From assembly GCA_030600745.1 (NCBI GenBank), contig JAUVLL010000002.1, positions 1 through 32,802 on the forward strand: a stretch of 32,802 nucleotides of DNA, written 5' to 3'. Shown here piece after piece: positions 7,507 to 29,700 of the stretch (positions are counted from its first letter, which is position 1; each line of letters starts with the position of its first letter). The DNA comes from Spirochaetaceae bacterium. GTDB lineage: Bacteria; Spirochaetota; Spirochaetia; B11-G9. The position numbers were made by a program, and so were the translations under genes. The notes below the pieces were generated by a model. The model made no database searches and was not told the origin of the DNA. It was given only the letters and a program-made list of their open reading frames with translations.

Positions 7507-7542
7507 ACCTTTTATCAATAATCTTCTACAAGAAGGAAATAT

Positions 7543-12041: not shown

Positions 12042-12073
12042 GAAAATCTCTCCTGATTTTTTATTTAAACAGA

Positions 12074-13246: not shown

Positions 13247-13248
13247 AT

Positions 13249-15079: not shown

Positions 15080-16339
15080 ATGTTTAATATTCAAGATTCC
15101 GGCTTATCAAAGGTTCTGACCCACGCTACCGATATGGTAGCTGATCATGCAAAGGGTGTGTATATTTATGATTCAAAGGATACAGAATATCTGGATTTTA
15201 CTTCCGGAATAGGTGTAACCAGTACCGGGCATTGTCATCCAAAAGTTGTTTCTGCAATTAAAAAACAGGCTGAATCACTTATATTCGGGCAACTGAATAT
15301 AGTAGTTCATAAACCTGTACTGGAACTGATTGATAGACTTAAGAATATTGTCCCTTCCGGTCTTGACAGATTTTTCTTTTCAAACAGTGGAGCTGAGGCA
15401 GTAGAAGCTTCTGTAAAACTGGCAAAACGAGCAACAGGACGATCCAATATCATAGTTTTTCAGGGAAGCTTCCATGGCAGAACACATCTGACCATGTCTA
15501 TGACAACCAGTAAAACAATTTACAGGGCACAGTATCAGCCTTTGGTTCCTGGTATCTTTGTAACACCATATCCATACTCATATTATTACGGATGGAATGA
15601 TGATGAAACATCCAGCTTTGCAATAAAGGAATTGGAACGTCTTTTTAAATCTCAGACTACTCCGGAAGAGACTGCAGCTATTATAATTGAACCTGTACTT
15701 GGAGAAGGCGGATATGTAGTTCCACCCAGAGGATTTATCAAAACCTTAAGAGAAATCTGTGATAAGTACGGCATCCTTCTTATTGCCGATGAAATACAGT
15801 CCGGATTTGGAAGAACCGGAAAATATTTTGCAGTAGATCATGAAGATGTTGCTCCAGATATAATGGTTATGGCAAAAGGTCTTGCCTCAGGTATGCCTCT
15901 TTCATGTATCGCCTACAAACATGACCTGGAGAAGAATTGGCTTCCGGGAAGTCATGGCGGCACTTATGGGGGAAACCCGGTATCCTGTGCGGCGGCTGTT
16001 GCAACGATTGATGTAATTTCCAATGAAAATCTGGTTACCAATGCTGCTATAAGAGGAAAGCAATTACTGGAAGGACTGAAAACTCTAAAAAAGAAGAATA
16101 AGCGTATCGGGGATGTAAGAGGATTGGGACTTATGGCGGCTGTAGAGTTTGTCAGGGACAATAAGCCCGATCCTGAGACTACGAAAGCTGTCATTGCAGA
16201 GGCTGCCGACAGAAACCTTCTCCTTTTAAGTTGCGGTACTTTTGGGAATGTTGTCAGATTAATTCCGCCTCTTATTGTTAACGAAGCTCAGATAGAAAAA
16301 GCACTGACCATATTTGAAGATGCCCTGGACAATCTTTAG
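15080..16339 (+). CDS. Class-III (omega) aminotransferase, GabT/PuuE-like (4-aminobutyrate aminotransferase family)
   Basis: Collinear with E. coli GabT (from memory): TGHCHPKVV, SNSGAEAVE, GSFHGRT, IIEPVLGEGG, ADEIQSGFGRTGK, MAKGLASGMPL (PLP lysine), GGTYGGNP, DVRGLGLM and LLLSCG. A GGAGGA RBS is present. Confidence 0.85.
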   Translation: MFNIQDSGLSKVLTHATDMVADHAKGVYIYDSKDTEYLDFTSGIGVTSTGHCHPKVVSAIKKQAESLIFGQLNIVVHKPVLELIDRLKNIVPSGLDRFFFSNSGAEAVEASVKLAKRATGRSNIIVFQGSFHGRTHLTMSMTTSKTIYRAQYQPLVPGIFVTPYPYSYYYGWNDDETSSFAIKELERLFKSQTTPEETAAIIIEPVLGEGGYVVPPRGFIKTLREICDKYGILLIADEIQSGFGRTGKYFAVDHEDVAPDIMVMAKGLASGMPLSCIAYKHDLEKNWLPGSHGGTYGGNPVSCAAAVATIDVISNENLVTNAAIRGKQLLEGLKTLKKKNKRIGDVRGLGLMAAVEFVRDNKPDPETTKAVIAEAADRNLLLLSCGTFGNVVRLIPPLIVNEAQIEKALTIFEDALDNL

Positions 16340-16344
16340 TCATT

Positions 16345-17187
16345 ATGTGTTTAAGTATAAATACAGATATATTTTCCAGCCGGGGCAATCCATTTCCTAT
16401 ACTGAAGCAAATTGCAGAAAAAGGGTTCAAATATATTCAATGGTCCCACCACTATGGTACTGATTTTTATTATAATAAATCTGAAATTAAGGAAATTAAA
16501 AACAGATTAGATGAATACGGTCTGATCCTTAATGATCTTCATGCAACAATCGGAGTTGAAAAAAGGTGGTTTTCGGAAACTGAATATCAAAGGAAGGCCG
16601 GAGTCGAACTTGTAAAGAACAGAATTGAGATGACAGCAGAGCTTGGAGGAGATGTTATTGTACTTCATCCCTTTAATACTCCTGATCCGGACTTATATGA
16701 TATACATTATAAACAGGGAAAAAAATCATTAAATGAACTTAAAGAGGTTTGCCTGAATACAGGAGTTAAAATTGCTCTTGAAAACCTCACATCCATGCAG
16801 ACTTTAACAACAATAGAGAAATATTTTGATAATTTTAAGGATAATTTTCTTGGATTTTGCTGGGACACCGGACATACAAATAATCTGGAACCTGAAGCAA
16901 TTGATTATGCTGATAAATTTACCAGTGAAAGATTGATTGCACTTCATATTAACGACAATATGGGGGATGGAAGGGACCTTCACGGTATTCCTTTTTCAGG
17001 AACTGCTGATTGGAAAAAAATTACAAAAATTATCTCAAAATCATCTTATTCCGTAAAAAAACCTTTAACTCTGGAAGTAGAACATGGAGAAGAAAAAACA
17101 CTTGATGAATTTATAAAAATTGCAATGGAAAAAGGATTAATAATTAATAAAATGGTAAAAAACCACAGAAAACAGCATAGTCTGTAA
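16345..17187 (+). CDS. Xylose-isomerase-like TIM-barrel protein (sugar phosphate isomerase/epimerase family)
   Basis: The 280-aa product has the typical pattern ..VLHP.. / ..ALEN.. / ..DTGH.. / ..HINDN.. of metal-binding strands. It starts 5 nt after the aminotransferase stop. Confidence 0.7.
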   Translation: MCLSINTDIFSSRGNPFPILKQIAEKGFKYIQWSHHYGTDFYYNKSEIKEIKNRLDEYGLILNDLHATIGVEKRWFSETEYQRKAGVELVKNRIEMTAELGGDVIVLHPFNTPDPDLYDIHYKQGKKSLNELKEVCLNTGVKIALENLTSMQTLTTIEKYFDNFKDNFLGFCWDTGHTNNLEPEAIDYADKFTSERLIALHINDNMGDGRDLHGIPFSGTADWKKITKIISKSSYSVKKPLTLEVEHGEEKTLDEFIKIAMEKGLIINKMVKNHRKQHSL

Positions 17188-17206
17188 TTCAGGTTCTATT
17201 TTATTC

Positions 17207-17914
17207 TCAAAAATTCTTTACGGTAGCATCTGCCTGAGCTTTTTCAATATGCTCCATCATAAGTTTTAGGGACAATTTCGAATTCCCTTTTTTTACAGCA
17301 TTGAATATCTTAATATGATCCTCCAAACCTTTTTCCGGTCGGCCTTTAAGTTTTAAAGTTGTCTGCCTGGTTTTGACAAGAAGACCTTTAGCCATTAAAA
17401 GCATCTTCTCAAACACACTATTTTTGCATGCTGCTGCAAGGGCATCATGAAAAGCAGTATCACCTTCAATCCCGATACCCCCATTTTCAATATCTTCTCT
17501 CATTAAATCAATACTTCTTTCCATCCTTGCTATATCTTCTTCTGTTCTGCGTAAAGCCGCAAGTCTGGCTATTTCAGTCTCAAGAATTCTACGGAATTCA
17601 AGCATTTCAATAATAAGCTCTTTTTCATTTCCCAGAATTTCAGAAAAAGGATTGATAAGGGCATCAATTGAAATCTTTTTTACAAAGGTCCCTCCGCCAA
17701 CTCCAACCCTGGAATCAAGAAAGCCCAAAGTTCCCAGAACACGAAGAGCTTCCCTGATTGAAGCCCGGCTGACCTGAAATAATTCTGACAACTCTCTTTC
17801 ACTTGGAAGCTGATCACCGGTTTTATAAGTGCCGTCAATAATCATGGATTGAAGCTTCTTAAGCACCTCTTCTGATAATCGACGTTTTTTTATCGGCTTA
17901 ATTTTATTATCCAT
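17207..17914 (-). CDS. GntR-family regulator, FadR subfamily (FCD domain)
   Basis: The winged HTH reads LPSERELSELFQVSRASIREALRVLGTLGFL. An all-helical FCD-type C-terminal domain follows. It is the last gene of the minus-strand operon. Confidence 0.85.
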   Translation of the reverse strand: MDNKIKPIKKRRLSEEVLKKLQSMIIDGTYKTGDQLPSERELSELFQVSRASIREALRVLGTLGFLDSRVGVGGGTFVKKISIDALINPFSEILGNEKELIIEMLEFRRILETEIARLAALRRTEEDIARMERSIDLMREDIENGGIGIEGDTAFHDALAAACKNSVFEKMLLMAKGLLVKTRQTTLKLKGRPEKGLEDHIKIFNAVKKGNSKLSLKLMMEHIEKAQADATVKNF

Positions 17915-17931
17915 ATTTCGGGTAATCCTAT

Positions 17932-19380
17932 TTATATTGATTGGATTGCTTCTTCAAAAGCAGTATTAATCATTTCGATGGGTACTTTTTTAATATACCC
18001 CCCCTTCTCCATTGATTCTATAAGGTTTCTGGAATAACTTATCTCTTCCTCTGCCTTTTTAAAAACCTCATCTCTTGTCATTATTACCCTTGCAAGTCCC
18101 TCTTCGATAGCCTGCATGGCTACATCCGCGGCCTCACAGGGAAAAACTCCCGGTTCTTCCATTGTCGCAATTATATTATCCGGTGTTATTCCCCTTTCCT
18201 CCGCATATTTAGCAAGCGATTTTGCTGCCGCTATTGTCATTCCATCAGAAATCTTTTTTGCCCTGACAAGCAAAGCACCCTTCAAAATACCAGGAAAACC
18301 AACAGAATTATTAACCTGATTAGGAAAGTCTCCTCTGCCTGTTGCAACAATAAATGCCCCGGCAGCTTTAGCAGCATAGGGATAGATCTCCGGGACCGGA
18401 TTTGCACATGCAAAAACAATAGATTTTGAAGCCATTTTTTTTATATCGACCGGAGAAACCGTATCCGGGCCTTGTTTGGAAAGTGCAATGAGAACATCCG
18501 CCCCGGTCATAGCTTCACTAAATGTTTCAATTTTACCTGGATTCGTTTTCTGACAGAGTTCCCACTTTCGGTAAAAGCGTTTGTCTTCTTCAATATCTTT
18601 ACGGTCTCTATTAAGAGGACCCTTTGAATCGAAAACTACAATATTTGCAGGATTAGCTCCAGCCTGTATTACAATTCTGGCAATAGTTGAATTTGATGCT
18701 CCTGCACCCAAAAATACAATTTTTACTTCTTCAAGTTTTTTATCAGCCAGTTTAACTGCATTTATCAGACCGGCAAGGGTCACACAGGCTGTTCCCTGTG
18801 CATCATCATGCCATACAGGAATATCACATTCTTCCCGCAGTGTATCAAGCACTTTATAGCAGTTCGGTTGTGATATATCTTCAAGATTAATTGCTCCAAA
18901 ACCAGGCTGGACCATCTTTACAAATTCTATTATTTTATCAGGATCATGCTCACCCTTACTGTTTCTACTGTCAATGCAAAGGGCTGTAGCATCAACTCCC
19001 CCAAGGTACTTCATTAAAAAAGCCTTTCCTTCCATAACCCCAAGACCTCCCGGAGGGGTACAGTCCCCATCACCCAGGACCCTGGTTGAATCGCTTACAA
19101 CAGCAACATAGTTACCTTTATTGGATAAATCATACGCTGCATCATTATCATCTCTTATTATTGTTGATACTTTTGAAACTCCGGGAGTATACCATACATT
19201 AAACCAGTTGAAACCGAAGACACCCGCCTTAGGTACTGTCTGCATCTTACCGCCATAAAATTTATGGGCCTTTTCGGAAAGATTTTTCATGAAATCTGTT
19301 TTAACCCTTGCTTTCTGGCTTTCATTTAGTCCACGTTTTTCTATCTCTTCCTCTATATTTGCTAAATCAAGATTTATCAT
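17932..19380 (-). CDS. NAD(P)-dependent malic enzyme (oxaloacetate-decarboxylating malate dehydrogenase), short prokaryotic type
   Basis: YTPGV, VVSDSTRVLGDGD, MEGKA, INLEDI, HDDAQGTA, FLGAGASN, FACANPVPEI and NNSVGFPG. ATG 19380 follows an AAGGAG RBS; the track start at 19389 is GTG. Confidence 0.85.
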   Translation of the reverse strand: MINLDLANIEEEIEKRGLNESQKARVKTDFMKNLSEKAHKFYGGKMQTVPKAGVFGFNWFNVWYTPGVSKVSTIIRDDNDAAYDLSNKGNYVAVVSDSTRVLGDGDCTPPGGLGVMEGKAFLMKYLGGVDATALCIDSRNSKGEHDPDKIIEFVKMVQPGFGAINLEDISQPNCYKVLDTLREECDIPVWHDDAQGTACVTLAGLINAVKLADKKLEEVKIVFLGAGASNSTIARIVIQAGANPANIVVFDSKGPLNRDRKDIEEDKRFYRKWELCQKTNPGKIETFSEAMTGADVLIALSKQGPDTVSPVDIKKMASKSIVFACANPVPEIYPYAAKAAGAFIVATGRGDFPNQVNNSVGFPGILKGALLVRAKKISDGMTIAAAKSLAKYAEERGITPDNIIATMEEPGVFPCEAADVAMQAIEEGLARVIMTRDEVFKKAEEEISYSRNLIESMEKGGYIKKVPIEMINTAFEEAIQSI

Positions 19381-19403
19381 TAAAAACACTCCTTATTATT
19401 TTT

Positions 19404-20687
19404 TTAGCTGTTTGCTGTATAGTTGGGTAGTATTGAACCGCCAAAAGGGATGATATGAACAAGAGCATCCTTGCCTTTTCTCCCAAGAGCTTCATCCAAA
19501 GCCTGCTGAGGTTCTTTAAAAGGTTTCATAAATATATTTCCGACAAGGGATGGATCCATATCCGATACAAGATATATCTCTGCATTCTTCAGTATCAAAG
19601 CAATTGCAGCTGCTTTATGTCCTCCAAGAATAAAGTTCTTTCGAATTTCCTCTATCATGAGTTCAGGTTTTTCAAATTCTATCATCCACTTTTCGAATTG
19701 TCCCCCACCCAGACCTTCTGTGCATGCTGCAACAAGAATTATAATCCCACCCTCTTTAACCGCATGTTTGGCATTTTCAAGGGCTTTATGGGCCTGATAA
19801 AGATTAATATCTTTAGGATAACCTCCGGGGGAAACAACCACTATATCTGCTTTAGTATCTATCGGACAGCTGTAAAGCCTGTCTATTAATCTACACCCCT
19901 CTCTATGGGCAGCTACAGGATCGCCGGCAAAAGCTCCTATAATTTTTTTATGCTCATCAAGCACAACATTAAAAAGAAAATCAATTTTAATAAAATCAGC
20001 AACCTCTTCGATATCATCTCTAACCGGATTATTAATTAAATTTCCTCCACAGGCTTTGTCCTTCACCATATGACTGTGGTTCTTCTGTATAGCAGAAAAG
20101 GTTGAAACCCCCGGCATAACAGCCTTGTATCCGCCGCTGTAACCGGCAAAATAATGATATTCAATATTTCCAAGACAGATTATTTTATCTGCATGGACAA
20201 CCGGTCTAAAAATATCAACAGGAGTCCCCCTTGATGTCACCCCTAATGATACTACATCATCAGGATCACTATCTATACAGCTTATTCTTATAAAAATGTC
20301 ATCACCAACTAATTTTCTTTTTTCTTCATCTGTCTGCTTCCGATGGCTTCCAAGTCCAAAAACTATTGTTATATCATTGTCCTCTATTCCAGCTCTGTTT
20401 AATTCCATGATCAGTGCCGGCAAAATCTTATAGCCCGGCAACGGTCTTGTAATGTCACTCGTTATAATAACTACCTTTTCACCTTCTTCAAAAATATCAT
20501 AAACAGGCAAACTCTTTATTGGATTTCTTAAAGCCTGTTCAACCACCTCGGCTTCCGAAAGCTGTAGATCAATCTTTTCCACATACATTACTTTCCCAAT
20601 ATTTTTTGCAGGTATTAATAGTGATTTATTCTGCTTTCCAAAGCCCAATTCTACCTTAGTAAAACCTTCTTTCATCTTCTGTATCAT
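19404..20687 (-). CDS. larA: LarA-family nickel-pincer-nucleotide-dependent 2-hydroxyacid racemase/epimerase
   Basis: The 427-aa product has GLGSHR, EYHYFAGYSGGYKAVMPG, NHSH and NLYQAHKALENA. These match the catalytic His/His, the NPN-tethering Lys, the Ni-binding His and the Y-Q-x-x-K substrate motif of L. plantarum LarA (from memory). A GGAGGG RBS is present. Confidence 0.8.
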   Translation of the reverse strand: MIQKMKEGFTKVELGFGKQNKSLLIPAKNIGKVMYVEKIDLQLSEAEVVEQALRNPIKSLPVYDIFEEGEKVVIITSDITRPLPGYKILPALIMELNRAGIEDNDITIVFGLGSHRKQTDEEKRKLVGDDIFIRISCIDSDPDDVVSLGVTSRGTPVDIFRPVVHADKIICLGNIEYHYFAGYSGGYKAVMPGVSTFSAIQKNHSHMVKDKACGGNLINNPVRDDIEEVADFIKIDFLFNVVLDEHKKIIGAFAGDPVAAHREGCRLIDRLYSCPIDTKADIVVVSPGGYPKDINLYQAHKALENAKHAVKEGGIIILVAACTEGLGGGQFEKWMIEFEKPELMIEEIRKNFILGGHKAAAIALILKNAEIYLVSDMDPSLVGNIFMKPFKEPQQALDEALGRKGKDALVHIIPFGGSILPNYTANS

Positions 20688-20708
20688 CTATACCCTCCAT
20701 AATCGCCC

Positions 20709-21578
20709 CTACAGGAGATCTGCCAGAATCTCTACAAGATCTTCGGTCCCTTCCGCTATATGGACCCCGGAATTCCTTAATTCCGCCTCTTTCTTTTCTG
20801 CGGAACCTTCACCATCCGGCGAAACAATTGCTCCCGCATGTCCCATACTGGTATCATTAGGCACATTCTTTCCTGCAATGAGTGCAACAACAGGTTTCGT
20901 AATATGCTCTTTAATATAAGCAGCTGCCAACTCTTCTTCACTGCCACCTATTTCGCCTATCAATACAATTATTTTTGTATCAGGATCATTCTCAAAAAAT
21001 GGAAGAATATCAGCAAACGTTGAGCCGGGGACCATATCACCTCCAACTCCCACTACTGTGGATTGACCTATCCCTTTCTGCTTTAATAAAAATACTGTCT
21101 CATAGCAGTTAGTAGCACTTCGGGACATTATCCCTACATTCCCGGGCATAAAAATCCTGTGTGCCATAAAACCGGCTTTTGCCTTTCCGGGAGAAATTAC
21201 TCCGAAGGAGTTAGGTCCTATAAGCCTGCATCCTTTTTCTTTTGCAAGATGATGAAGTTTCAGCATTTCATGAACAGGGACCCCCTCTGCAATAGTAATT
21301 ACCAATGGAATTCCAGAAATAATAGCCTCATATGCGGCCTTATACATAAATTTCGGCGGCACAAATAATAGAGTAGCATTTGCATCTGTTTCCTCCATCG
21401 CCTCCATTACAGTATTAAATACCGGCACGCCCAGTACTTCCCCGCCGCCTTTCCCCGGAGTAACCCCGGCAACGACCTTTGTTCCATACTCAAGCATCTG
21501 TTCAGTGTGAAATGTTCCTTCTCTTCCGGTAATTCCCTGAACAATAAGTTTTGTATTCTCATCTATAAAGAAACTCAT
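20709..21578 (-). CDS. sucD: Succinyl-CoA synthetase alpha-subunit-like (ADP-forming acid-CoA ligase, CoA-binding / phosphohistidine subunit)
   Basis: [24 protein letters not shown] and SMGHAGAIV (phosphohistidine loop). There is a 4-nt ATGA overlap with the beta subunit. Acid specificity (succinate versus malate or another acid) cannot be read from the sequence. Confidence 0.8.
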
Positions 21579-22717
21579 ACCTTCAGCTCCTGTGCCAGAA
21601 TTTCAACTCCGTTTTTCAGTCCTTCAGCTATTTTGATACTGCCCCTGACACCGGCTATTATCTCAAGCCCCTTTTCCTTATTTGTACCTTCAAGGCGTAT
21701 CACAAGTTTTGTGTCTGCAAAAAGTCCAATTCCGTTTTCAACTCCCCGGGCTATCTCATCACATCTGGTGATCCCTCCAAAAATATTCATAAATATTGTA
21801 TCAACAAGGGGGTTCGATGCCGCTATTCGCAGGGATTCTGTTATGCGATCAGCTGTAGCACCACCTCCAAGATCCAGAGCACAGGTCACAGTCATACCCC
21901 TTTTTGTAATAAGATCAATTGAGGACATTATCATACCCGAACCATTACTGATTACAGCTATATTACCTTCATTATTTATTGGAATATATAGAAGATTAAA
22001 TTTACGGGCTTCAGGAATAAGTTTGTTTTCTTCTATATCATCTCTGAACTCTCTTATATCATCGTGTCTGAAAAGGGAGTTATCATCAATATCAATTTTC
22101 CCATCCAGGGCCATCAATTTATTGTTGTCATCAACAATCAATGGATTTATCTCGGCAAGCATACAATCCATATCAATGAAGATATTATATAACTTCCTGC
22201 ATATATCTTTGAAATCGGAACGATAATTCTGCTCAAGACCGGTTTTATCCATCGCATACTGAATGACAAAATCATTGAGAGGCTCCAGGGGACCAAGGAG
22301 GACTTTAGCTATTTTATCCGGATGCTTTCCGGCTATTTCATTAATCTCTACTCCACCCTCCGGGCTGAAGATCATTACAGGTTTTTTATGTTTCCTATCC
22401 AAAGTAAAGCTGAGATACATCTCTTTTTTCAATTCAATCATTTCAGGAAGAAAAATATATTTTACCGGAAGGTCCTTAATCTTCATTTCAAACATGGCCT
22501 TCCCTTTTTTAAGAAGTTCTGAATCACCTGATGCAAATTGAATACCCCCGGCCTTCCCGCGTCCACCAGTCTGGACCTGTGCCTTTAAGACAAGCGGATA
22601 CTTCATTTTTCCTCTAAGCTTAGTCAATTCTTCCATCGAACCAACAACATTACCGCTTCTGCAGGGCAGATCATATTTTTCAAAAATTTCATGGGCTTTA
22701 TACTCCAGCAGTTTCAT
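21575..22717 (-). CDS. sucC: Succinyl-CoA synthetase beta-subunit-like (ATP-grasp subunit)
   Basis: MKLLEYKAHEIFEKY, VLKAQVQTGGRGKAGGI, INPL, an LDGK segment and GGITRCDEIARG. Confidence 0.8.
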   Translation of the reverse strand: MKLLEYKAHEIFEKYDLPCRSGNVVGSMEELTKLRGKMKYPLVLKAQVQTGGRGKAGGIQFASGDSELLKKGKAMFEMKIKDLPVKYIFLPEMIELKKEMYLSFTLDRKHKKPVMIFSPEGGVEINEIAGKHPDKIAKVLLGPLEPLNDFVIQYAMDKTGLEQNYRSDFKDICRKLYNIFIDMDCMLAEINPLIVDDNNKLMALDGKIDIDDNSLFRHDDIREFRDDIEENKLIPEARKFNLLYIPINNEGNIAVISNGSGMIMSSIDLITKRGMTVTCALDLGGGATADRITESLRIAASNPLVDTIFMNIFGGITRCDEIARGVENGIGLFADTKLVIRLEGTNKEKGLEIIAGVRGSIKIAEGLKNGVEILAQELKV

Positions 22718-22722
22718 ATACT

Positions 22723-24096
22723 TTATTCCTCTTCAGCCCAAAGCTCTTCATCGCCGGGGACCGTATTGTTCTTCCTAATATTCGAGATTCTTGTAATATT
22801 AAGCAGATGTTTGTAATAGAAATTTTCAGAGATACTGTTATTACCCCATGACCCGCAACCCAGAGTACTGGATGCATTGAGACCGTTCAGGAAACTCCCC
22901 CCGCTGCTGGTAGCACAGGTCTGATTCACAAGGACCCTGCTTACGGGTACACGCATTCCAAGTTCATGGATGTGTTCCTTGTTATTAGAGTGGATCGAAA
23001 CGGAATGGCCCTTGCCCTCTATTTCCAGATTATCGATTGCAATATCCACAGCTTCAGAAAAATCGTTGTATTTAAAAGGAGTAATTACCGAAAACATCTT
23101 TTCCTTACGCAGGAGGCTCTTTTTATTGGAAACTTCTTCCGGCATAACAATAACTTTGGTCTCTTTCGGGATTTCCAAACCTGCCGCCCCGGCAATTACA
23201 CTAACACTCTGTCCAACCATATCCTTATTAATCTTCCCATCCGGGAACAGTACATTCAGAAGCTTTTTCCGCTCCTTGTCGCTCTCAACCCAGTAGCCGC
23301 CATAGGCTTCCAGTTCCTTTCTCATCTCCTCATATTTATCCACCGGGGTGATGATACTCTGTTCACCGGAGCAGATAATTCCACGATCGAAGATTCTTCC
23401 GTCAATAATCATTTTGACCGCTTCTTTTATATCAACATCCCGATCTATGATAGTCTGCACATTCCCCTGACCAACCCCGAATGAAGGTTTCCCGCTCGAA
23501 TATGCGGCCCTGACCATCCCCGGTCCACCGGTAGCTACGATCACATCCACATTCTCCATCAGCAGATTGGTACGCTTCACACTTGCCCCGTCTACATACT
23601 GAATAAGATTATCCGGCGCACCATGTTTCTTAATTGCCTCATTCCACCTGTCGACCAGAAATTTGGTAGTTTTCTCTGCCCTGGGATGAGGAGCAATAAT
23701 AATTGAATTTCTTCCCTTAACAGCTGCCATAGCATTGGCCATGGCAGTAACCTGGGGGTTGGTAGTCGGCTGTATTGCTCCGACAACTCCAACAGGCTTG
23801 GCAATCTCTATAATACCTGTTTCTTCATCCTCTTTAATGGTCCCAATAGATTTTTTACCCTTCAGGCTGTACCACAGAATTTTTGCCTTTCCAAGGTTTT
23901 TTGCAGTTTTGTATTCTACAGCACCCATTCCGGTTTCCGCTACCGCCATCTTTGCCAGCTCTTCTGCATTATCAAAAACATATTTGGCAATCTCCCGGAC
24001 AATCCTGTCTATAGCTTTCTGGTCAAAAGACTCAATTTTTTTAAGTGCTTTTCCTGACTTTACTACCAGTTCTTTAATATATTCCTCATCTGTCAT
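22723..24096 (-). CDS. CoA-acylating aldehyde dehydrogenase, Clostridium kluyveri SucD-type (succinate-semialdehyde dehydrogenase, acylating) family
   Basis: Collinear with C. kluyveri SucD (from memory): AKPVGVVGAIQPTTNP, AMAAVKGRNSIIIAPHPRA, ATGGPGMVRAAYSSGKP, GIICSGEQS (catalytic Cys), LGCGSWGNNSISEN. ATG 24096 (MTDEEY) follows a GGGAGAAG RBS; the track start at 24129 is TTG. Confidence 0.8.
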   Translation of the reverse strand: MTDEEYIKELVVKSGKALKKIESFDQKAIDRIVREIAKYVFDNAEELAKMAVAETGMGAVEYKTAKNLGKAKILWYSLKGKKSIGTIKEDEETGIIEIAKPVGVVGAIQPTTNPQVTAMANAMAAVKGRNSIIIAPHPRAEKTTKFLVDRWNEAIKKHGAPDNLIQYVDGASVKRTNLLMENVDVIVATGGPGMVRAAYSSGKPSFGVGQGNVQTIIDRDVDIKEAVKMIIDGRIFDRGIICSGEQSIITPVDKYEEMRKELEAYGGYWVESDKERKKLLNVLFPDGKINKDMVGQSVSVIAGAAGLEIPKETKVIVMPEEVSNKKSLLRKEKMFSVITPFKYNDFSEAVDIAIDNLEIEGKGHSVSIHSNNKEHIHELGMRVPVSRVLVNQTCATSSGGSFLNGLNASSTLGCGSWGNNSISENFYYKHLLNITRISNIRKNNTVPGDEELWAEEE

Positions 24097-24127
24097 TCTA
24101 CTTCTCCCTGTAAATATCTTCCAATGC

Positions 24128-24146
24128 AAGACCTTTCAAAGGTCTT
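24128..24146. promoter_or_regulatory. Perfect 19-bp palindrome AAGACCTTT-C-AAAGGTCTT; candidate operator (GntR/FadR?) or 5' mRNA hairpin
   Basis: It is a perfect 9-1-9 inverted repeat. It lies just downstream of the predicted -10 of the minus-strand operon promoter and about 32 nt upstream of ATG 24096. Confidence 0.4.
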
Positions 24147-24154
24147 ACCTTTAT

Positions 24155-24184
24155 ATTATTAGCCCTTTAATTTCTTTTTGTCAA
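24155..24184 (-). promoter_or_regulatory. Sigma70-like promoter for the aldehyde dehydrogenase-to-GntR operon
   Basis: On the minus strand: TTGACA (24184-24179), 17-18-nt spacer, TAATAA/AATAAT (24161-24155). Confidence 0.35.
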
Positions 24185-24324
24185 TCACCAGCCCGACCTT
24201 CACTGTTTACCGGATGTCTATCAATTTAACACAATTCTAATATTACTATAATCTATTCTAAACATAACCCCTATAGTTTTTCTAATGATGATCAAGGCAG
24301 CAGCTGAAATTTTAATAATAAGGC

Positions 24325-24352
24325 TTGACAGCTGTGTATAGTATGCTAAACT
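24325..24352 (+). promoter_or_regulatory. Sigma70-like promoter for the ABC transporter operon
   Basis: TTGACA (24325-24330), 16-nt spacer, TAAACT (24347-24352). Confidence 0.4.
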
Positions 24353-24423
24353 AAATTTAACATATTAAACTTTTACCGGATACTTCGACTATAAAATATG
24401 TGAAATAACTGAAGGAGAGAAAG

Positions 24424-26445
24424 ATGAAAAAGAAACTTATTGTTGTTCTGTTATCGCTGTTCATTGTATTCAGCGTATTTTCAGGCGGCGACAAAGAAAC
24501 AACCACAGAGGATACGGGCGGATACATTGCAGCTCCAACCGTTTCTTATGCTATGGGGATAACAACTGAATTCCCTCAGCAGCTTGAACTGGTTGATTAT
24601 GAGAAACAGACCGGTGAAAAACTGGAATTTACGGGTAATCCATTATTTGCTGAAAGAGAGAAAAGCAAAGATCTTCCATCTGTAGATCAACGACTGCCTG
24701 AAGAACCCCTTGTTGTTCTCCCGTATGATGTAATTGGTAAATACGGCGGCCAGCTTAAAGGTATGTGTATCTCTTATGAATCAGGTACATCCGAAGTTAT
24801 GGCATGGCGTCACGCCAATCTTGTCAGATTTAGTGATGACATGAGCACATTAGTGCCGAATGTCGCTAAAGCATGGAAATGGAACAGTGACTTTACTGAA
24901 ATTACATTTACATTGCGTAAAGGCCACAAATGGTCTGACGGCGACCCCTTTGATGCTGATGATATGGTTTTTTATGTAAATGACATTCTTCTTAACAAAG
25001 AGATCCACAAGGTTATTCCTTCTCCATGGAGCGGAGCTGTTCCAAGTATAGAGAAAATTAATGATGTCACTGTTAAGATGAAATTCGAAAATGCATTTAC
25101 AGGTTTACTTTATTATTTAGGTGGAAGCGGATCTTATTTTGATGCATTTGCACCAAAACATTTTCTGGAACAGTATCACATTGAATATAACGCCAATGCC
25201 GATAAAGAAGCAAAGGCAGCCGGGTATGATAACTGGGTACAGCAGTTCGGCACTTACTGGAATAAATGGAAAGATGCAGTAGTTGCAGGTCCTGAGGGAG
25301 TTAAGGTCCCAACCCTTGAAAGTCATATTCTGCAGGAAGTACCTACAACACAACGCCGTATCTATATTGCCAATCCTTACTACTTTAAAGTGGATACAGC
25401 AGGTAATCAGCTTCCTTATGTTGATTATCATTATGAAAGATTTCTTGAAAAGCAGTTATGGCCTCTTGAAATTATGAACGGTAATATTGATCAGAAAGCA
25501 CAGAACATGCCCCTTGATATCTATACCGTACTTAAAGAAAACGAGAAAAAAGGACAATATGAATTGCAGCTTCCTTCCGGACAGGTTGGACCGACAATGA
25601 TATTTAACCAGACAAGTGATGATCCTGTTTTAGGAAAAATCTTTAGTGATGTCCGCTTCAGGTATGCCATGTCCCTGGCAATTAATCGTAATGAGATCAA
25701 TGAGTCTCTTTTTCTCGGACTGGGAACTCCTGAACAGGCGCTTCCTTTAAATGTGCCCTATGTTACCGATAAAGACAGGAAATTCATGACTGAATATAAT
25801 CCTGATAAAGCAAACAAACTGCTTGATGAAATGGGCTTGAAGATGGGATCTGATGGATACAGAATGGGTCCTGACGGGAAACCGTTTACAGTACTGTGGG
25901 AATACACTCTTCAGTATGTATGGACAACGGATTTTCCAGCTCTTGTATCTGAATACTGGAAAGATGTGGGTGTAAAAGTACTGCTTAAAGAAGTAACCAC
26001 TCAGCTTACCAGAGATAAACAGAAAGCCAATACACTGGATATTACAAGCGAATGGATGGCCCCCTTTGAACCAAGTATGATTTCAACTCCTCACCTGTTT
26101 CTTCCTCCGTATTCCGGACATTGGCCTATTATGGGTCTGCCATGGATGGATTGGAAGACCAGCAACGGATCATCAGGGGTAAAACCACCTGCATGGGTAC
26201 TGGATCTATGGGACATCGCAGCTGAATGGACCACTCTTGTTCCAGGTTCATCAAGATATATTGAACTTGGAAAGAAGATTATAAAGATCAATCAGGAAAA
26301 TCTGCCTGTTATTGGTACTCTTGGCAATATTCCATTGATAACTGTAGTTTCAGACAGGCTCGGAAATGCACCGGAATGGACAATTAACAGTACTTTCTTT
26401 GGTTATTCATATCCGTATAGAGCTGATCAGTGGTTTATCAAATAA
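24424..26445 (+). CDS. ABC transporter substrate-binding protein, family 5 (Opp/Dpp-type), unusually long at 673 aa
   Basis: It has an N-terminal signal sequence MKKKLIVVLLSLFIVFSVFSGG with no lipobox Cys, and family-5 SBP composition. A GAAGGAGAG RBS is present. It is the first gene of a 5-gene transporter operon. Confidence 0.85.
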   Translation: MKKKLIVVLLSLFIVFSVFSGGDKETTTEDTGGYIAAPTVSYAMGITTEFPQQLELVDYEKQTGEKLEFTGNPLFAEREKSKDLPSVDQRLPEEPLVVLPYDVIGKYGGQLKGMCISYESGTSEVMAWRHANLVRFSDDMSTLVPNVAKAWKWNSDFTEITFTLRKGHKWSDGDPFDADDMVFYVNDILLNKEIHKVIPSPWSGAVPSIEKINDVTVKMKFENAFTGLLYYLGGSGSYFDAFAPKHFLEQYHIEYNANADKEAKAAGYDNWVQQFGTYWNKWKDAVVAGPEGVKVPTLESHILQEVPTTQRRIYIANPYYFKVDTAGNQLPYVDYHYERFLEKQLWPLEIMNGNIDQKAQNMPLDIYTVLKENEKKGQYELQLPSGQVGPTMIFNQTSDDPVLGKIFSDVRFRYAMSLAINRNEINESLFLGLGTPEQALPLNVPYVTDKDRKFMTEYNPDKANKLLDEMGLKMGSDGYRMGPDGKPFTVLWEYTLQYVWTTDFPALVSEYWKDVGVKVLLKEVTTQLTRDKQKANTLDITSEWMAPFEPSMISTPHLFLPPYSGHWPIMGLPWMDWKTSNGSSGVKPPAWVLDLWDIAAEWTTLVPGSSRYIELGKKIIKINQENLPVIGTLGNIPLITVVSDRLGNAPEWTINSTFFGYSYPYRADQWFIK

Positions 26446-26478
26446 ACAGATAGATCAATTCTTCTATAATATAATAAT

Positions 26479-26517
26479 ACCGGATCCGGGCAGAAGCTTG
26501 TCTGAGTCCGGTTTTTT
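26479..26517 (+). terminator. Hairpin + T6: putative intra-operon attenuator/terminator after the SBP gene
   Basis: ACCGGA...TCCGGT outer stem with an inner CAGA/TCTG pairing, followed by TTTTTT (26512-26517). The stem is imperfect. Confidence 0.4.
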
Positions 26518-26554
26518 ACAAGCTAATTAATATTTTTTATAAGGGGGAATAATA

Positions 26555-27553
26555 ATGCTTGAATTATTTGTACGCCGCCTTGGTACTGCGTGTGTTACCA
26601 TGTTTTTATTATCTATTGTCGCCTTTATCCTCATTCAGCTTCCTCCGGGAGATTTTGTAGATACCTATGCAGGTAAAAAAACTCAGGGAGGGGTTATCAT
26701 TACCCAGGATGAACTGGATACAATGCGAAGCAGACTGGGTCTTGACAGACCGTTATACCAGCAATATGGGAAATGGGTAGGTAATCTTTTTAAGGGTGAT
26801 ATGGGGTTTTCCTGGGAATACCACAGGCCGGTAAAAGATGTAATAGCAGAGAGGCTAACCATGACTCTTATTCTTGCTTTTTCGACCCTTATTTTTACAT
26901 ATGTTGTTGCAATTATTATTGGGATCTATTCTGCCGTCCGGCAGTATTCAATAGGTGATAATCTGGCAACAGTTATAGGGTATCTGGGTCTGGCAACCCC
27001 CGGGTTTTTGTTTGCATTGATTCTTATGTTTCTTGGACAGAAATGGTTCGGTATAAGTGTCGGTGGGTTGTTTTCTCCCGAGTTTGAAGATGCTGCATGG
27101 AGTTTTGCGAAATTAATGGATCTGTTTTCCCATCTCTGGGTCCCTGTTGTTGTTCTCGGTATGGCAGGTACTGCATTCCAGATTCGTACCATGAGGGCCA
27201 CTCTTCTCGATGAGCTTAACAAAATGTATGTTACATCTGCAAGGGCGGGAGGAATACCTGAATTCAAACTGCTTATGAGGTATCCTGTTCGTATGGCACT
27301 CAATCCCATAGCATCAACTCTTGGATGGGAACTGAGTAAGATAATTTCAGGCGCTCCAATAATCGGTATAGTTTTATCTTTACCCACTCTTGGTCCATTG
27401 TATGTTAATTCACTGCTTAGTCAGGACATTTATCTGGCCGGTGCCTTAATACTTATCTTTTGTTCTCTTGTAATTGTTGGTACTTTTATATCAGATATAC
27501 TTCTTATGGTCCTGGACCCACGGCTAAGGCTTGGAAAGGCAGGTGTAAAATGA
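26555..27553 (+). CDS. ABC transporter permease (DppB/OppB-like)
   Basis: The 332-aa polytopic membrane protein has the EAA-type loop region ..RATLLDELNKMYVTSARAGG.. An AAGGGGGA RBS is present. Confidence 0.85.
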   Translation: MLELFVRRLGTACVTMFLLSIVAFILIQLPPGDFVDTYAGKKTQGGVIITQDELDTMRSRLGLDRPLYQQYGKWVGNLFKGDMGFSWEYHRPVKDVIAERLTMTLILAFSTLIFTYVVAIIIGIYSAVRQYSIGDNLATVIGYLGLATPGFLFALILMFLGQKWFGISVGGLFSPEFEDAAWSFAKLMDLFSHLWVPVVVLGMAGTAFQIRTMRATLLDELNKMYVTSARAGGIPEFKLLMRYPVRMALNPIASTLGWELSKIISGAPIIGIVLSLPTLGPLYVNSLLSQDIYLAGALILIFCSLVIVGTFISDILLMVLDPRLRLGKAGVK

Positions 27554-28674: not shown

Positions 28675-28686
28675 GTGACACTTAGA

Positions 28687-29688: not shown

Positions 29689-29700
29689 GGAGAGTTATTA

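What the first reader, a model, noticed from the sequence alone, without database searches (positions are those of the whole stretch)
17207..24184. Operon coupling a SucD-type acylating aldehyde dehydrogenase, an SCS-like ligase, a LarA racemase and malic enzyme: candidate ATP-yielding C4 semialdehyde-to-pyruvate pathway
Six tightly packed co-directional genes (gaps of 5-22 nt, one ATGA overlap) encode the following. (1) A CoA-acylating semialdehyde dehydrogenase of the C. kluyveri SucD type. (2, 3) A succinyl-CoA-synthetase-like beta/alpha pair with an intact phosphohistidine loop. (4) A LarA-family nickel-pincer 2-hydroxyacid racemase. (5) Malic enzyme. (6) A FadR-type GntR regulator. If the acid were succinate, genes 4 and 5 would have no connection to genes 1-3. 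If the aldehyde were malic semialdehyde, the five enzymes would form one linear route. That route runs semialdehyde to malyl-CoA, then to malate + ATP by substrate-level phosphorylation. Malate thiokinase is an SCS homologue (established). The final steps are D/L-malate racemisation, then pyruvate + CO2. LarA homologues with malate racemase activity are established. Malic semialdehyde is the established C4 product of carnitine C-N cleavage. It would also arise by transamination of 4-amino-3-hydroxybutyrate. I am not aware of this gene combination being described as a pathway. The assignment is inference from gene order only.
Basis: partly seen in the sequence, partly recalled or inferred. Interest (0 to 1): 0.78.

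Follow-up and report, generated by a model that had tools for sequence, protein, structure and literature searches.

The report
ATP-yielding aldehyde-to-D-malate-to-pyruvate operon
A six-gene operon in a spirochaete, conserved in at least four bacterial phyla, probably oxidises a four-carbon hydroxy-aldehyde acid to D-malate while making ATP and then converts the D-malate to pyruvate. This would explain why so many anaerobes carry a nickel-dependent malate racemase.

Summary
Six co-directional minus-strand genes (17207-24096) encode a SucD-type acylating aldehyde dehydrogenase, an SCS-like beta/alpha pair, a LarAH6-type malate racemase, a malic enzyme and a FadR-type GntR regulator. A strong promoter and a GGTnnnACC operator lie upstream.

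- The dehydrogenase-ligase triplet recurs in 25 distinct loci from Spirochaetia, Halanaerobium, Planctomycetes and a Bacteroidetes-labelled MAG.
- In 23 of the 25 a D-malate-consuming module lies within 10 kb. It is a LarA-family racemase in 17 (malic enzyme also seen in 13 of them), a tartrate/D-malate dehydrogenase homologue in 5, and D-2-hydroxyacid dehydrogenases plus an RraA-like gene in 1.
- The ligase belongs to a discrete, monophyletic SCS subfamily with invariant changes beside the residue that binds succinate's distal carboxylate. It is not housekeeping SucCD, not MtkAB and not a known sulfonate ligase.
- GABA-type aminotransferases adjoin the operon in several genomes.

No substrate has been tested. 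The position of the hydroxyl group and the natural feedstock are unresolved; there is no evidence for carnitine.

The parts have precedents (SqwD/SqwKL, HpfX/HpfYZ, the Acinetobacter D-malate route), so this is a new variant of a known kind.

The parts
24155..24184 (-). Sigma-70-type promoter, TTGACA-18 nt-AATAAT
   Evidence: Best promoter-like match in 16900-24500, 11 of 12 positions. It lies about 60 nt upstream of the aldehyde dehydrogenase ATG.
24123..24151 (-). Operator-like palindrome containing GGTAAGACC (a GGTnnnACC FadR/GntR-type box), between the -10 hexamer and the ribosome-binding site
   Evidence: Inverted repeat of 14-nt arms, 86% complementary. A GGTnnnACC box sits 36-53 nt upstream of the dehydrogenase ATG in the window and in 14 fetched loci (two of which, L001 and L018, are one genomic region), and 82 nt upstream in one more (L013).
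22723..24096 (-). CoA-acylating aldehyde dehydrogenase of the C. kluyveri SucD type (457 aa)
   Evidence: Best PDB hit is 8CEI: 463.6 bits, 48.8% identity, full length. Cys242, His364, and the distal-carboxylate ligands Lys70 and Ser243 of CkSucD (PMC10249356) are conserved here. In the other clade loci Cys242, His364 and Lys70 are invariant; Ser243 is Ala in three (L017, L023, L027). It is below the SauS cut-off (421.5 against 600).
21575..22717 (-). Beta subunit of an ADP-forming SCS-like acid-CoA ligase (380 aa), SNGSGM subfamily
   Evidence: Pfam ATP-grasp_2 and Ligase_CoA domains. Just under the SucC cut-offs (375.2 against 375.55; 365.3 against 370). MtkA model 254.3 against 604. The motif SNGSGM[ILV]M replaces the canonical NGAGL[AV]M in all 120 best hits. 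The switch to the canonical motif is sharp at rank 7 of the representative search. The subfamily is monophyletic in an NJ tree.
20709..21578 (-). Alpha subunit of the SCS-like ligase (289 aa), translationally coupled to beta by an ATGA overlap
   Evidence: Passes the SucD models (372 against 353.2). Phosphohistidine loop MGHAGAI is present. The segment around the Tyr that binds succinate's C4 carboxylate in pig SCS (PMC11489063) reads SRSATN[C/A]YE instead of SRSGTLTYE. This is invariant in all 26 loci that cover the segment.
19404..20687 (-). Nickel-pincer (NPN)-dependent malate racemase, LarAH6/Mar2 group (427 aa)
   Evidence: NF052593 548.1 against a cut-off of 500. Mar2 (6D6Z) 418.9 bits, 48.6% identity. 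The HYF loop and GHK motif match the group-6 signature in the Desguin 2020 dataset.
17932..19389 (-). Malic enzyme (485 aa, GTG start)
   Evidence: Pfam malic and Malic_M domains. 3NV9 malic enzyme 674.5 bits, 62.4% identity. 75-82% identical in the Spirochaete loci that carry it with a window-type (59-70% identical) LarA.
17207..17914 (-). FadR-subfamily GntR regulator (235 aa), last gene of the operon
   Evidence: GntR and FCD domains. Homologues lie at the end of, or inside, the module in many loci.
16345..17187 (+). Xylose-isomerase-like TIM-barrel protein, convergent with the operon. Probably an accessory enzyme of the pathway; role unknown.
   Evidence: Pfam AP_endonuc_2. In close relatives it is found as AT3-GntR-TIM (L032), OppF-AT3-ME-TIM (L034), and in the window layout (L033).
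15080..16339 (+). Class-III (GABA-type) aminotransferase, co-transcribed with the TIM-barrel gene. Candidate producer of the semialdehyde.
   Evidence: Pfam Aminotran_3. NCBIfam PRK08117 526.3 against 574 and GABA transaminase 417.5 against 506.65. A different GABA-type aminotransferase sits directly upstream of the dehydrogenase in L002 and L015.
24424..30795 (+). Divergent Opp/Dpp-type ABC transporter (673-aa binding protein, two permeases, two ATPases). Possible importer of the substrate, or of nickel.
   Evidence: Pfam assignments. Same divergent layout in L004 at 95-98% identity. In L034 the OppF homologue is followed directly by AT3-ME-TIM. Weak Opp4A and NikA similarity only.

Best explanation
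The operon is a self-regulated catabolic funnel. It turns a C4 hydroxy-dicarboxylic semialdehyde (malate semialdehyde) into pyruvate and gains one ATP by substrate-level phosphorylation.

Proposed steps:
1. The SucD-type dehydrogenase oxidises the aldehyde with CoA and NAD(P)+ to the acyl-CoA.
2. The SCS-like ligase (SNGSGM / SRSATNCYE subfamily) converts the thioester, ADP and phosphate into D-malate, ATP and CoA through its phosphohistidine.
3. The NPN-dependent LarAH6-type racemase converts D-malate to L-malate.
4. Malic enzyme decarboxylates L-malate oxidatively to pyruvate.
5. The FadR-type GntR repressor binds the GGTnnnACC box that overlaps the transcript start. It is presumably released by a pathway intermediate.

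In this lineage the semialdehyde probably comes from an amino compound. The import route would be the divergent Opp-type transporter, and processing would be by the adjacent class-III aminotransferase and TIM-barrel enzyme.

What is shown: gene content, family membership, conserved synteny, the distinct ligase subfamily, and the promoter and operator motifs.
What is inferred: every substrate, the direction of flux, the stereochemistry, the position of the hydroxyl group, and the effector.
For: 1. Family assignments hold.

2. Synteny. The dehydrogenase-beta-alpha triplet is intact in every locus long enough to show it. These come from Spirochaetia, two Planctomycetes, Halanaerobium hydrogeniformans and a Bacteroidetes-labelled MAG.

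3. Of 25 distinct loci with enough downstream sequence, 23 carry a D-malate-consuming module within the fetched flanks:
- 17 have a LarA-family gene whose best or near-best model is the LarAH6 malate racemase; malic enzyme is also present in 13 of these.
- 5 have instead a tartrate/D-malate dehydrogenase-family gene (TIGR02089, 459.6 bits against 470.4).
- 1 has two D-2-hydroxyacid dehydrogenases and an RraA-like aldolase/oxaloacetate decarboxylase homologue.
D-malate is the one substrate that I know to be common to the racemase-plus-malic-enzyme route and to tartrate dehydrogenase homologues.

4. A PDH-type E1-alpha/beta-E2-E3 set (many loci) or pyruvate phosphate dikinase (Halanaerobium) lies inside or next to the unit. 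This fits pyruvate as the product.

5. The dehydrogenase keeps Lys70 and Ser243, which hold the distal carboxylate in CkSucD.

6. The ligase keeps the Tyr that binds succinate's C4 carboxylate. It shows invariant clade-specific polar changes next to it (L to N, T to C) and NGAG to NGSG in beta. The known sulfonate ligases replace that Tyr with Asn or His instead.

7. The subfamily is discrete and monophyletic.

8. Aminotransferases adjoin the module.

9. Precedents exist. Malic semialdehyde to D-malate to pyruvate is demonstrated in A. baumannii (PMC11353897). Acylating dehydrogenase plus ADP-forming ligase pairs that yield ATP are demonstrated for sulfonates (PMC10413351 and PMC11489063).

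10. A conserved promoter and operator lie in front of the dehydrogenase.
Against: - No biochemical or expression data exist for any member.
- The dehydrogenase is 48.8% identical to a true succinyl-CoA reductase. The ligase alpha subunit passes the SucD models and beta misses by less than 6 bits. Succinate semialdehyde therefore remains possible.
- The clade-specific residues are suggestive, not diagnostic, and no structure of the complex was modelled.
- The NJ stem that separates the subfamily is short (0.016).
- Two loci (L008, L028) show no malate module within the fetched flank.
- In the Planctomycete loci the neighbours are a ribokinase and a DeoC aldolase, whose product would be acetaldehyde.
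- Malate racemases also epimerise tartrate (PMC11770544). The replacing dehydrogenase family also acts on tartrate.
- No larB, larC or larE cofactor genes are in the window.
- No known natural source of malate semialdehyde in anaerobes was identified.
Confidence: 0.55

Rival explanations
1. Two independent functions share one operon. The aminotransferase, SucD-type dehydrogenase and SCS-like ligase form an ATP-yielding GABA route: GABA to succinate semialdehyde to succinyl-CoA to succinate. The racemase and malic enzyme separately use external D-malate. The two are co-regulated only because the substrates co-occur.
For: - The closest solved relative of the dehydrogenase is a genuine succinyl-CoA reductase, with the same carboxylate ligands.
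- The ligase alpha subunit passes the SucD equivalog, and beta misses by under 6 bits.
- The Tyr that binds succinate is retained.
- The adjacent aminotransferases score best against GABA transaminase models.
Against: - This reading does not explain why 23 of 25 loci in at least four phyla keep a D-malate-consuming module beside the triplet. Nor does it explain why that module is swapped for a non-homologous one in the same position.
- No fumarase, fumarate reductase or 4-hydroxybutyrate genes appear in any locus.
- The ligase has invariant substitutions beside the substrate Tyr and forms its own clade.
- Most loci have a sugar-type feeder instead of an aminotransferase.
Confidence: 0.2
2. The intermediate is tartrate, not malate. 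Tartrate semialdehyde is oxidised through tartryl-CoA to tartrate with ATP gain. The LarA homologue then acts as a tartrate epimerase, and the tartrate dehydrogenase homologue (or another enzyme) carries the product onward.
For: - Characterised malate racemases also epimerise tartrate (PMC11770544).
- The replacing enzyme in L013, L014, L016, L021 and L022 scores best against the tartrate dehydrogenase model.
- Many loci carry an IolG-equivalog dehydrogenase and a sugar transporter. By my own knowledge, these could lead to keto-gluconates, which are known precursors of tartrate semialdehyde.
Against: - Malic enzyme is well conserved among the loci that carry it (75-82% identical in the close Spirochaete loci, 39-69% in more distant ones) and 62% identical to a solved malic enzyme. 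Malic enzymes are not known to use tartrate.
- Racemase efficiency on tartrate is 60- to 180-fold lower than on malate in the enzyme with the listed values.
- The window and its closest relatives have an aminotransferase feeder, not a sugar one.
Confidence: 0.08
3. The dehydrogenase and ligase act on a sulfonated aldehyde, as SauS/SauCD, SqwD/SqwKL or HpfX/HpfYZ do. Candidates are sulfoacetaldehyde from taurine, 3-sulfopropionaldehyde, or sulfolactaldehyde. The sulfonate acid would be excreted and ATP gained.
For: - Those characterised systems are homologues of SucD and SucCD (PMC10413351 and PMC11489063).
- The dehydrogenase scores 421.5 bits on the SauS model.
- One related locus (L028) sits among transaldolase, PfkB and class-II aldolase genes that resemble sulfoglycolysis clusters.
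- A sulfatase gene lies at 31004-32533.
Against: - The SauS score is far below its 600-bit cut-off.
- The signature changes of the sulfonate ligases are absent. SqwL has Tyr to Asn, HpfZ has Tyr to His, and HpfY has GIN. This clade keeps Tyr and has GIT.
- No sulfonate exporter, sulfo-lyase or sulfite gene was noted in the window or the loci.
- It does not explain the racemase, malic enzyme, D-malate dehydrogenase, PDH or PPDK neighbours.
Confidence: 0.05

Closest known systems
Acinetobacter baumannii L-carnitine pathway, lower part: malic semialdehyde dehydrogenase plus decarboxylating D-malate dehydrogenase (PMC11353897)
   Same: The proposed carbon route is the same: malic semialdehyde to D-malate to pyruvate plus CO2. 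The stereochemical problem is also the same: D-malate cannot enter central metabolism directly. In five related loci a beta-decarboxylating dehydrogenase of the tartrate/D-malate dehydrogenase family takes the place of racemase plus malic enzyme.
   Different: The Acinetobacter dehydrogenase is a non-acylating ALDH and no ATP is conserved. Here the aldehyde would be oxidised through a CoA thioester and an ADP-forming ligase. In the window, D-malate is handled by an NPN racemase plus an L-malic enzyme. The feeder there is an oxygenase (CntAB); here the candidates are an aminotransferase or a sugar-type module.
SqwD/SqwKL, SauS/SauCD and HpfX/HpfYZ: CoA-acylating sulfo-aldehyde dehydrogenases with ADP-forming sulfo-acid-CoA ligases (PMC10413351, PMC11489063)
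   Same: The two-enzyme logic and the protein families are the same: a SucD homologue plus a SucCD homologue that couple aldehyde oxidation to ATP formation. The three genes are adjacent in the same way.
   Different: Those enzymes act on sulfonates and have diagnostic changes at the distal-group site (alpha Tyr to Asn or His; beta GIN). This clade keeps the Tyr and has its own invariant motifs ([15 protein letters not shown]). It is linked to malate enzymes, not to sulfoglycolysis or sulfonate respiration genes.
Clostridium kluyveri SucD (succinyl-CoA reductase) and housekeeping SucCD
   Same: Closest characterised homologues. The catalytic Cys and His, the distal-carboxylate ligands and the phosphohistidine loop are all conserved.
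   Different: There is no 4-hydroxybutyrate or TCA-cycle context. The ligase is a separate subfamily with altered substrate-site neighbours. The unit is syntenic with D-malate enzymes.
Malate thiokinase MtkAB (ADP-forming malate-CoA ligase of the serine cycle)
   Same: An SCS homologue that interconverts malate and malyl-CoA using ATP. This shows that the proposed chemistry is feasible in the fold.
   Different: The window beta subunit scores 254.3 bits against the 604-bit cut-off of the MtkA model, so it is not a member. MtkAB works on L-malate in the activating direction, feeding malyl-CoA lyase. No lyase is present here.
LarAH6/Mar2 malate racemase with neighbouring malic enzyme (Desguin et al. 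2020, PMC7583248)
   Same: Same racemase group. That study already noted malic enzyme in 15% of group-6 neighbourhoods and used it to predict malate racemisation.
   Different: In that study's table of the COGs most often found near group 6, no succinyl-CoA synthetase entry was found (the COG0045, COG0074 and COG1012 look-ups returned nothing). The source of D-malate was left open.

Membership tests
SucD-type CoA-acylating (succinate-)semialdehyde dehydrogenase | Full-length homology to C. kluyveri SucD | tested here: met
   8CEI 463.6 bits over residues 1-453; 48.8% identity.
SucD-type CoA-acylating (succinate-)semialdehyde dehydrogenase | Catalytic Cys242 and His364, and distal-carboxylate ligands Lys70 and Ser243 | tested here: met
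   All four are conserved in the window. Cys242, His364 and Lys70 are conserved across the clade; Ser243 is Ala in L017, L023 and L027. Thr365 is Ser in most members, and there is a one-residue insertion near Thr395.
SucD-type CoA-acylating (succinate-)semialdehyde dehydrogenase | Activity on succinyl-CoA / succinate semialdehyde | not testable with these tools
   Needs an enzyme assay.
SauS acylating sulfoacetaldehyde dehydrogenase | NCBIfam equivalog NF047625 cut-off | tested here: not met
   421.5 bits against 600.
ADP-forming succinate-CoA ligase SucCD | Curated model cut-offs for both subunits | tested here: inconclusive
   Alpha passes (372 against 353.2; 368.4 against 336). Beta just fails (375.2 against 375.55; 365.3 against 370).
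ADP-forming succinate-CoA ligase SucCD | Phosphohistidine loop in alpha | tested here: met
   MGHAGAI is present.
ADP-forming succinate-CoA ligase SucCD | Canonical substrate-region motifs: alpha SRSGTLTYE, beta NGAGL[AV]M | tested here: not met
   Alpha reads SRSATNCYE and beta reads SNGSGMIM. These are invariant in the clade, and the switch to canonical motifs outside it is sharp.
Malate thiokinase MtkAB | NCBIfam equivalog NF010647 (beta subunit) cut-off | tested here: not met
   254.3 bits against 604. No tree with MtkAB sequences could be built.
Sulfonate-CoA ligases SqwKL / HpfYZ | Alpha Tyr167 equivalent replaced by Asn or His; beta GIN motif (HpfY) | tested here: not met
   Tyr is retained and beta reads GIT.
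NPN-dependent malate racemase, LarAH6 group | Equivalog model cut-off and group-6 signature residues | tested here: met
   NF052593 548.1 against 500. Mar2 418.9 bits. HYF loop, YQxHK and GHK motifs fall within the group-6 variation.
NPN-dependent malate racemase, LarAH6 group | Cofactor biosynthesis genes larB, larC and larE available | tested here: not met
   None among the 26 Pfam-scanned window ORFs of 150 aa or more. The rest of the genome is unknown.
Malic enzyme | Both malic-enzyme domains and close similarity to a solved malic enzyme | tested here: met
   PF00390 and PF03949. 3NV9 674.5 bits, 62.4% identity.
FadR-subfamily GntR regulator | GntR winged helix plus FCD domain, with a GGTnnnACC-type operator at its target promoter | tested here: met
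   Domains. Palindrome at 24123-24151, with the box conserved upstream of the dehydrogenase in 15 other fetched loci (one at 82 nt; L001 and L018 are one region). Binding itself is not tested.

The most novel reading that the evidence does not exclude
The SNGSGM / SRSATNCYE ligases are a previously unrecognised enzyme: an ADP-forming D-malate-CoA ligase. Together with a SucD-like malate-semialdehyde dehydrogenase it forms a widespread 'D-malate funnel' of anaerobes. Several different upstream routes feed this funnel:
- amino compounds, through a class-III aminotransferase and a TIM-barrel enzyme;
- a cyclitol or sugar route, through an IolG-like dehydrogenase, a TIM barrel and an M24 enzyme;
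- aldolase routes.
The funnel would also be the physiological reason why malate racemases are the largest group of the LarA superfamily.
Probability: 0.4. Interest if true: 0.75.

Novelty: new variant of a known kind. Interest (0 to 1): 0.62.

Why it matters
If correct, four things follow.
1. It defines a new substrate class (hydroxy-dicarboxylate) for the acylating-dehydrogenase plus ADP-forming-ligase energy-conserving module. So far that module is shown only for succinate and for sulfonates.
2. It supplies a metabolic source of D-malate in anaerobes. That gives a physiological role to malate racemases, which the 2024 survey called the largest group of the LarA superfamily.
3. It gives diagnostic sequence motifs for re-annotating the many genes now called 'succinate-CoA ligase': all 120 best database hits, and six 50%-identity clusters in the representative search.
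4. It points to unknown upstream pathways in marine and hypersaline Spirochaetes, Halanaerobium and Planctomycetes.

Halanaerobium hydrogeniformans, whose complete genome is public and which I take to be an isolate, carries the full cluster. Candidatus Marispirochaeta associata JC231 carries a variant. So the idea may be directly testable in culture.

Tried and rejected
1. Literature searches for an already described pathway found nothing with this gene combination in the held library. Terms covered malate or malic semialdehyde, malyl-CoA, D-malate, inositol, GABOB and norcarnitine.

2. I considered the PDH-like E1/E2/E3 set as a C-C-cleaving, acetoin-dehydrogenase-like enzyme that would make the semialdehyde from a keto-sugar acid. 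I set this aside for two reasons. The complex lies inside the GntR-controlled unit, downstream of the conserved operator. It also scores as a PDH type. Plain pyruvate oxidation explains it.

3. I considered a carnitine link through the MttB-family gene at 8244-9689. The gene scores below its cut-off, no corrinoid protein was found next to it in the window, and it was not seen next to the operon in the other loci examined.

4. Sulfonate readings were rejected on signature residues.

5. The Planctomycete neighbours are a true DeoC and a ribokinase. They could mean an acetaldehyde substrate there. I did not extend this to the window because those proteins are only 43-54% identical to the window's.

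6. A search for papers giving SCS succinate-site residues directly failed. The residues came instead from the HpfYZ paper.

7. The function of the TIM-barrel protein could not be narrowed. Only weak hits were found, to CbiR, L-ribulose-5-phosphate 3-epimerase, IolE and MJ1311.

8. The genome scan with the dehydrogenase reached only close relatives (22 loci). More distant contexts came from protein look-ups.

Full report
**1. The observation**

The minus strand of 17207-24096 carries six tightly packed ORFs.
- The first gene's mechanical ORF starts at a TTG. The sequence shows GGGAGAAG followed by ATG at 24096, which gives a 457-aa product.
- The gaps are 5, 21, 14 and 17 nt, with one ATGA overlap between the ligase subunits.
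- Pfam and NCBIfam confirm each family.
- The best promoter-like site of the whole region is TTGACA-18-AATAAT at 24184-24155. A 14-nt-arm palindrome at 24123-24151 follows immediately.

**2. What the proteins are**

*Aldehyde dehydrogenase*
- Its closest solved relative is C. kluyveri SucD (8CEI): 463.6 bits, 48.8% identity, end to end.
- The structural paper on that enzyme names Cys242 as the nucleophile, His364/Thr365 as proton donors, and Lys70 and Ser243 as ligands of the distal carboxylate (PMC10249356).
- The window protein has Lys66, Lys70, Thr112, Cys242, Ser243 and His364. The homologues examined keep these, except that Ser243 is Ala in three loci (L017, L023, L027).
- It fails the SauS equivalog cut-off (421.5 against 600).

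*Ligase*
- The alpha subunit passes the SucD models and has the MGHAGAI phosphohistidine loop.
- The beta subunit falls just under both SucC cut-offs and far under the malate thiokinase model (254.3 against 604).

*Racemase*
- LarA passes the equivalog model for LarAH6 malate racemase (548.1 against 500).
- It is 48.6% identical to the crystallised Mar2.
- It carries the HYF loop and GHK motif seen in group-6 members of the Desguin dataset.

*Malic enzyme and regulator*
- The malic enzyme is 62.4% identical to 3NV9.
- The regulator has GntR and FCD domains.

**3. Is the combination conserved?**

Sources of related loci:
- A protein search with the beta subunit.
- A genome scan with the dehydrogenase.
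- Nine context look-ups.
- A metagenome scan.

I annotated these loci with tblastn against the window proteins and with family scans of recurrent neighbours.

*Source of the window.* It most resembles a Spirochaetaceae MAG (L004, 95% identity).

*Conservation of the triplet.* The dehydrogenase-beta-alpha triplet is intact wherever the contig allows. Carriers include:
- many Spirochaetia, including Candidatus Marispirochaeta associata;
- two Planctomycetes (54% dehydrogenase identity);
- Halanaerobium hydrogeniformans (50% beta identity);
- a MAG labelled Bacteroidetes.

*What lies downstream.* Among 25 distinct loci with enough downstream sequence:

| Module within the fetched flank | Loci |
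|---|---|
| LarA-family gene (malic enzyme also seen in 13) | 17 |
| Tartrate/D-malate dehydrogenase-family gene (TIGR02089 459.6 against 470.4) | 5 (L013, L014, L016, L021, L022) |
| Two D-2-hydroxyacid dehydrogenases plus an RraA-like aldolase/oxaloacetate decarboxylase homologue | 1 (L009) |
| None | 2 (L008, L028) |

- A second LarA type (30-36% identical to the window's) still scores best on the malate racemase model.
- A PDH-type E1-alpha/beta-E2-E3 set is often inserted between the ligase and the racemase.
- Halanaerobium has two malic enzymes, LarA and pyruvate phosphate dikinase.

*Regulation.* A GGTnnnACC box lies 36-53 nt upstream of the dehydrogenase start in the window and in 14 fetched loci (L001 and L018 are one region), and at 82 nt in one more (L013). 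It often follows a TTGACA...TATAAT promoter. The unit from the dehydrogenase to the regulator therefore appears to be a separately controlled module.

**4. Is the ligase ordinary SucCD?**

- The HpfYZ paper states that in pig SCS (5CAE) the succinate C4 carboxylate contacts Tyr167 of alpha and the backbone of the beta GIV motif. It also states that the sulfonate ligases change these positions (PMC11489063). Its supplementary alignment gives SRSGTLTYE (pig), TRSGSLTNE (SqwL) and SRSGTLTHE (HpfZ).
- All 26 loci that cover the alpha segment read SRSATN[C/A]YE. The Tyr is kept, and the neighbouring Gly, Leu and Thr are replaced by Ala, Asn and Cys or Ala.
- The 27 that cover the first beta motif read SNGSGM[I/L]M where canonical enzymes read NGAGL[A/V]M; the 26 that cover the second read GGITRC.
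- All 120 best beta hits, down to 48% identity, carry SNGSGM.
- In an exhaustive search of 1.84 billion representatives, the first six hits (282-375 bits) carry SNGSGM. From rank 7 downward the listed hits read NGAGL, apart from one 308-aa fragment with SNGSGM (rank 14) and a few lower-ranked hits, not all of which were listed.
- An NJ tree puts the 26 SNGSGM sequences in one clade with no canonical sequence inside. The stem is short.
- The ligase is thus a discrete SCS subfamily. It is not MtkAB and not a known sulfonate ligase.
- The retained Tyr and the dehydrogenase's Lys70/Ser243 argue for a distal carboxylate. The added polar residues are compatible with an extra hydroxyl but do not prove one.

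**5. Mechanism**

The simplest scheme that uses every conserved gene is as follows.
1. Malate semialdehyde + CoA + NAD(P)+ gives the CoA ester.
2. The CoA ester + ADP + Pi gives D-malate + ATP.
3. D-malate is racemised to L-malate.
4. L-malate + NAD(P)+ gives pyruvate + CO2.
5. Where PDH is present, pyruvate goes on to acetyl-CoA.

Arguments for D-malate as the hub:
- It is the one compound I know to be used both by a malate racemase/malic enzyme pair and by tartrate dehydrogenase homologues. The D-malate activity of that dehydrogenase family rests on my own knowledge, consistent with PMC11353897.
- The A. baumannii work shows that a semialdehyde with the L-carnitine configuration yields D-malate. 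It states that reaching L-malate would require a racemase.

The ATP-yielding dehydrogenase/ligase logic has experimental precedent in SqwD/SqwKL, SauS/SauCD and HpfX/HpfYZ.

**6. What feeds it**

*In the window*
- A class-III aminotransferase and a xylose-isomerase-like TIM-barrel gene (15080-17187) converge on the operon.
- An Opp/Dpp-type ABC transporter diverges from it.
- Close relatives show AT3-GntR-TIM (L032), OppF-AT3-ME-TIM (L034), and the window layout (L033). These genes therefore travel with the module.
- In L002 and L015 a GABA-type aminotransferase lies directly upstream of the dehydrogenase. It is accompanied by a TRAP transporter, a sigma-54 activator, and a further NPN-dependent isomerase or an M20 amidohydrolase.

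*In most other loci*
- The usual feeder is a ribose-type ABC transporter, an IolG-equivalog dehydrogenase (400 against 355), a TIM-barrel protein, an SDR and an M24 protein distantly like DddP.
- Others have a DHDPS-type aldolase, an aldehyde:ferredoxin oxidoreductase, or DeoC plus ribokinase.

The module therefore looks like a funnel for several upstream routes. I could not identify any of the feed substrates. GABOB, 4-amino-2-hydroxybutyrate and others remain guesses.

*Regiochemistry.* Oxidation of 3-hydroxy-4-oxobutanoate would put CoA on the carboxyl next to the hydroxyl. The serine-cycle malyl-CoA carries it on the other carboxyl (my own knowledge). Which isomer applies is open.

**7. 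Rivals**

- Succinate semialdehyde/GABA plus an unrelated D-malate module (0.20). This fits the homology but not the cross-phylum synteny or the non-orthologous replacement.
- Tartrate semialdehyde/tartrate (0.08). This is allowed by racemase promiscuity and by the tartrate dehydrogenase homologue, but it does not use malic enzyme.
- Sulfonates (0.05). This is disfavoured by the signature residues and by the context.

**8. Novelty**

- Searches of the held literature found no description of this combination.
- Each element has a precedent. I therefore rate it a new variant of a known kind, with moderate to high interest.
- It proposes a new ligase specificity, a source of D-malate in anaerobes, and a role for the most common LarA group.
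- It should be testable in cultured organisms.
- Confidence in the central claim is 0.55. All substrate assignments are inference.

Noticed in passing
window 10440-14844 (minus strand): A three-gene unit that diverges from the aminotransferase gene. It encodes a KamA-family radical SAM aminomutase with a roughly 120-aa N-terminal extension (best model glutamate 2,3-aminomutase, 350.2 against a 650 cut-off), an M20 hydrolase and a gamma-glutamyltransferase. It suggests metabolism of a beta-amino acid or of a gamma-glutamyl / N-acyl conjugate. It could supply the amine for the neighbouring aminotransferase.
   Followed up: partly
window 8244-9689 (minus strand): An uninterrupted MttB-superfamily methyltransferase (TIGR02369 396.4 against a 525 cut-off). 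No corrinoid protein gene was found beside it in the window. It is possibly a quaternary-amine demethylase. It was not seen next to the operon in the related loci.
   Followed up: partly
window 5108-8124; L003 5489-8409; L010 3136-5963: A Kbl/BioF-like acyltransferase (340.1 against 460), an SDR-type epimerase/dehydrogenase and an HTH-cupin regulator. They lie 15 kb from the operon in the window but directly beside the dehydrogenase gene in L003 and L010.
   Followed up: partly
L026 (Halanaerobium hydrogeniformans CP002304, 189062-208243); also L005, L006, L008, L013, L017, L023, L027: A larger conserved supercluster. A ribose-type ABC transporter, an IolG-equivalog dehydrogenase, a TIM-barrel protein, an SDR and a DddP-like M24 protein lie upstream of the dehydrogenase-ligase-(PDH)-racemase-malic enzyme unit. 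It looks like an undescribed sugar or cyclitol pathway that ends in D-malate.
   Followed up: partly
L002 3778-5061; L015 1-2586: Additional NPN-dependent isomerases lie beside the TRAP transporter of the aminotransferase-type clusters. L002 has a 'group 22' type (466 against 400). L015 has a lactate-racemase-like type, next to an M20 amidohydrolase. They hint that the imported substrate is itself a 2-hydroxy acid.
   Followed up: no
window 24424-26445: The binding protein of the divergent ABC transporter is unusually long (673 aa). It has only weak similarity to Opp4A and to the nickel-binding NikA. It could import the substrate, or nickel for the racemase cofactor.
   Followed up: no
window 31004-32533: A sulfatase gene lies directly after the ABC transporter operon. 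It is not seen in the related loci.
   Followed up: no
window 158-985 and 1069-1710: A short zinc-type alcohol dehydrogenase ORF (275 aa) and an aminotransferase class I/II ORF that covers only profile positions 128-345 (213 aa). Both look truncated and may be pseudogenes or products of frameshifts.
   Followed up: no
L001 4530-6470; L031 5643-7538: An aldehyde:ferredoxin oxidoreductase lies just upstream of the acylating dehydrogenase in two loci. It is directly upstream in L031; in L001 a small ORF, a zinc alcohol dehydrogenase and a GntR gene lie between them. This would be a second, ferredoxin-linked way of handling an aldehyde in the same cluster.
   Followed up: no
L021 7453-9716; L022: In the Planctomycete versions the triplet follows a cupin, a true DeoC (276.2 against 117.3) and a ribokinase (306.2 against 299.65), with the tartrate/D-malate dehydrogenase homologue upstream. 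The aldehyde handled there may differ.
   Followed up: partly
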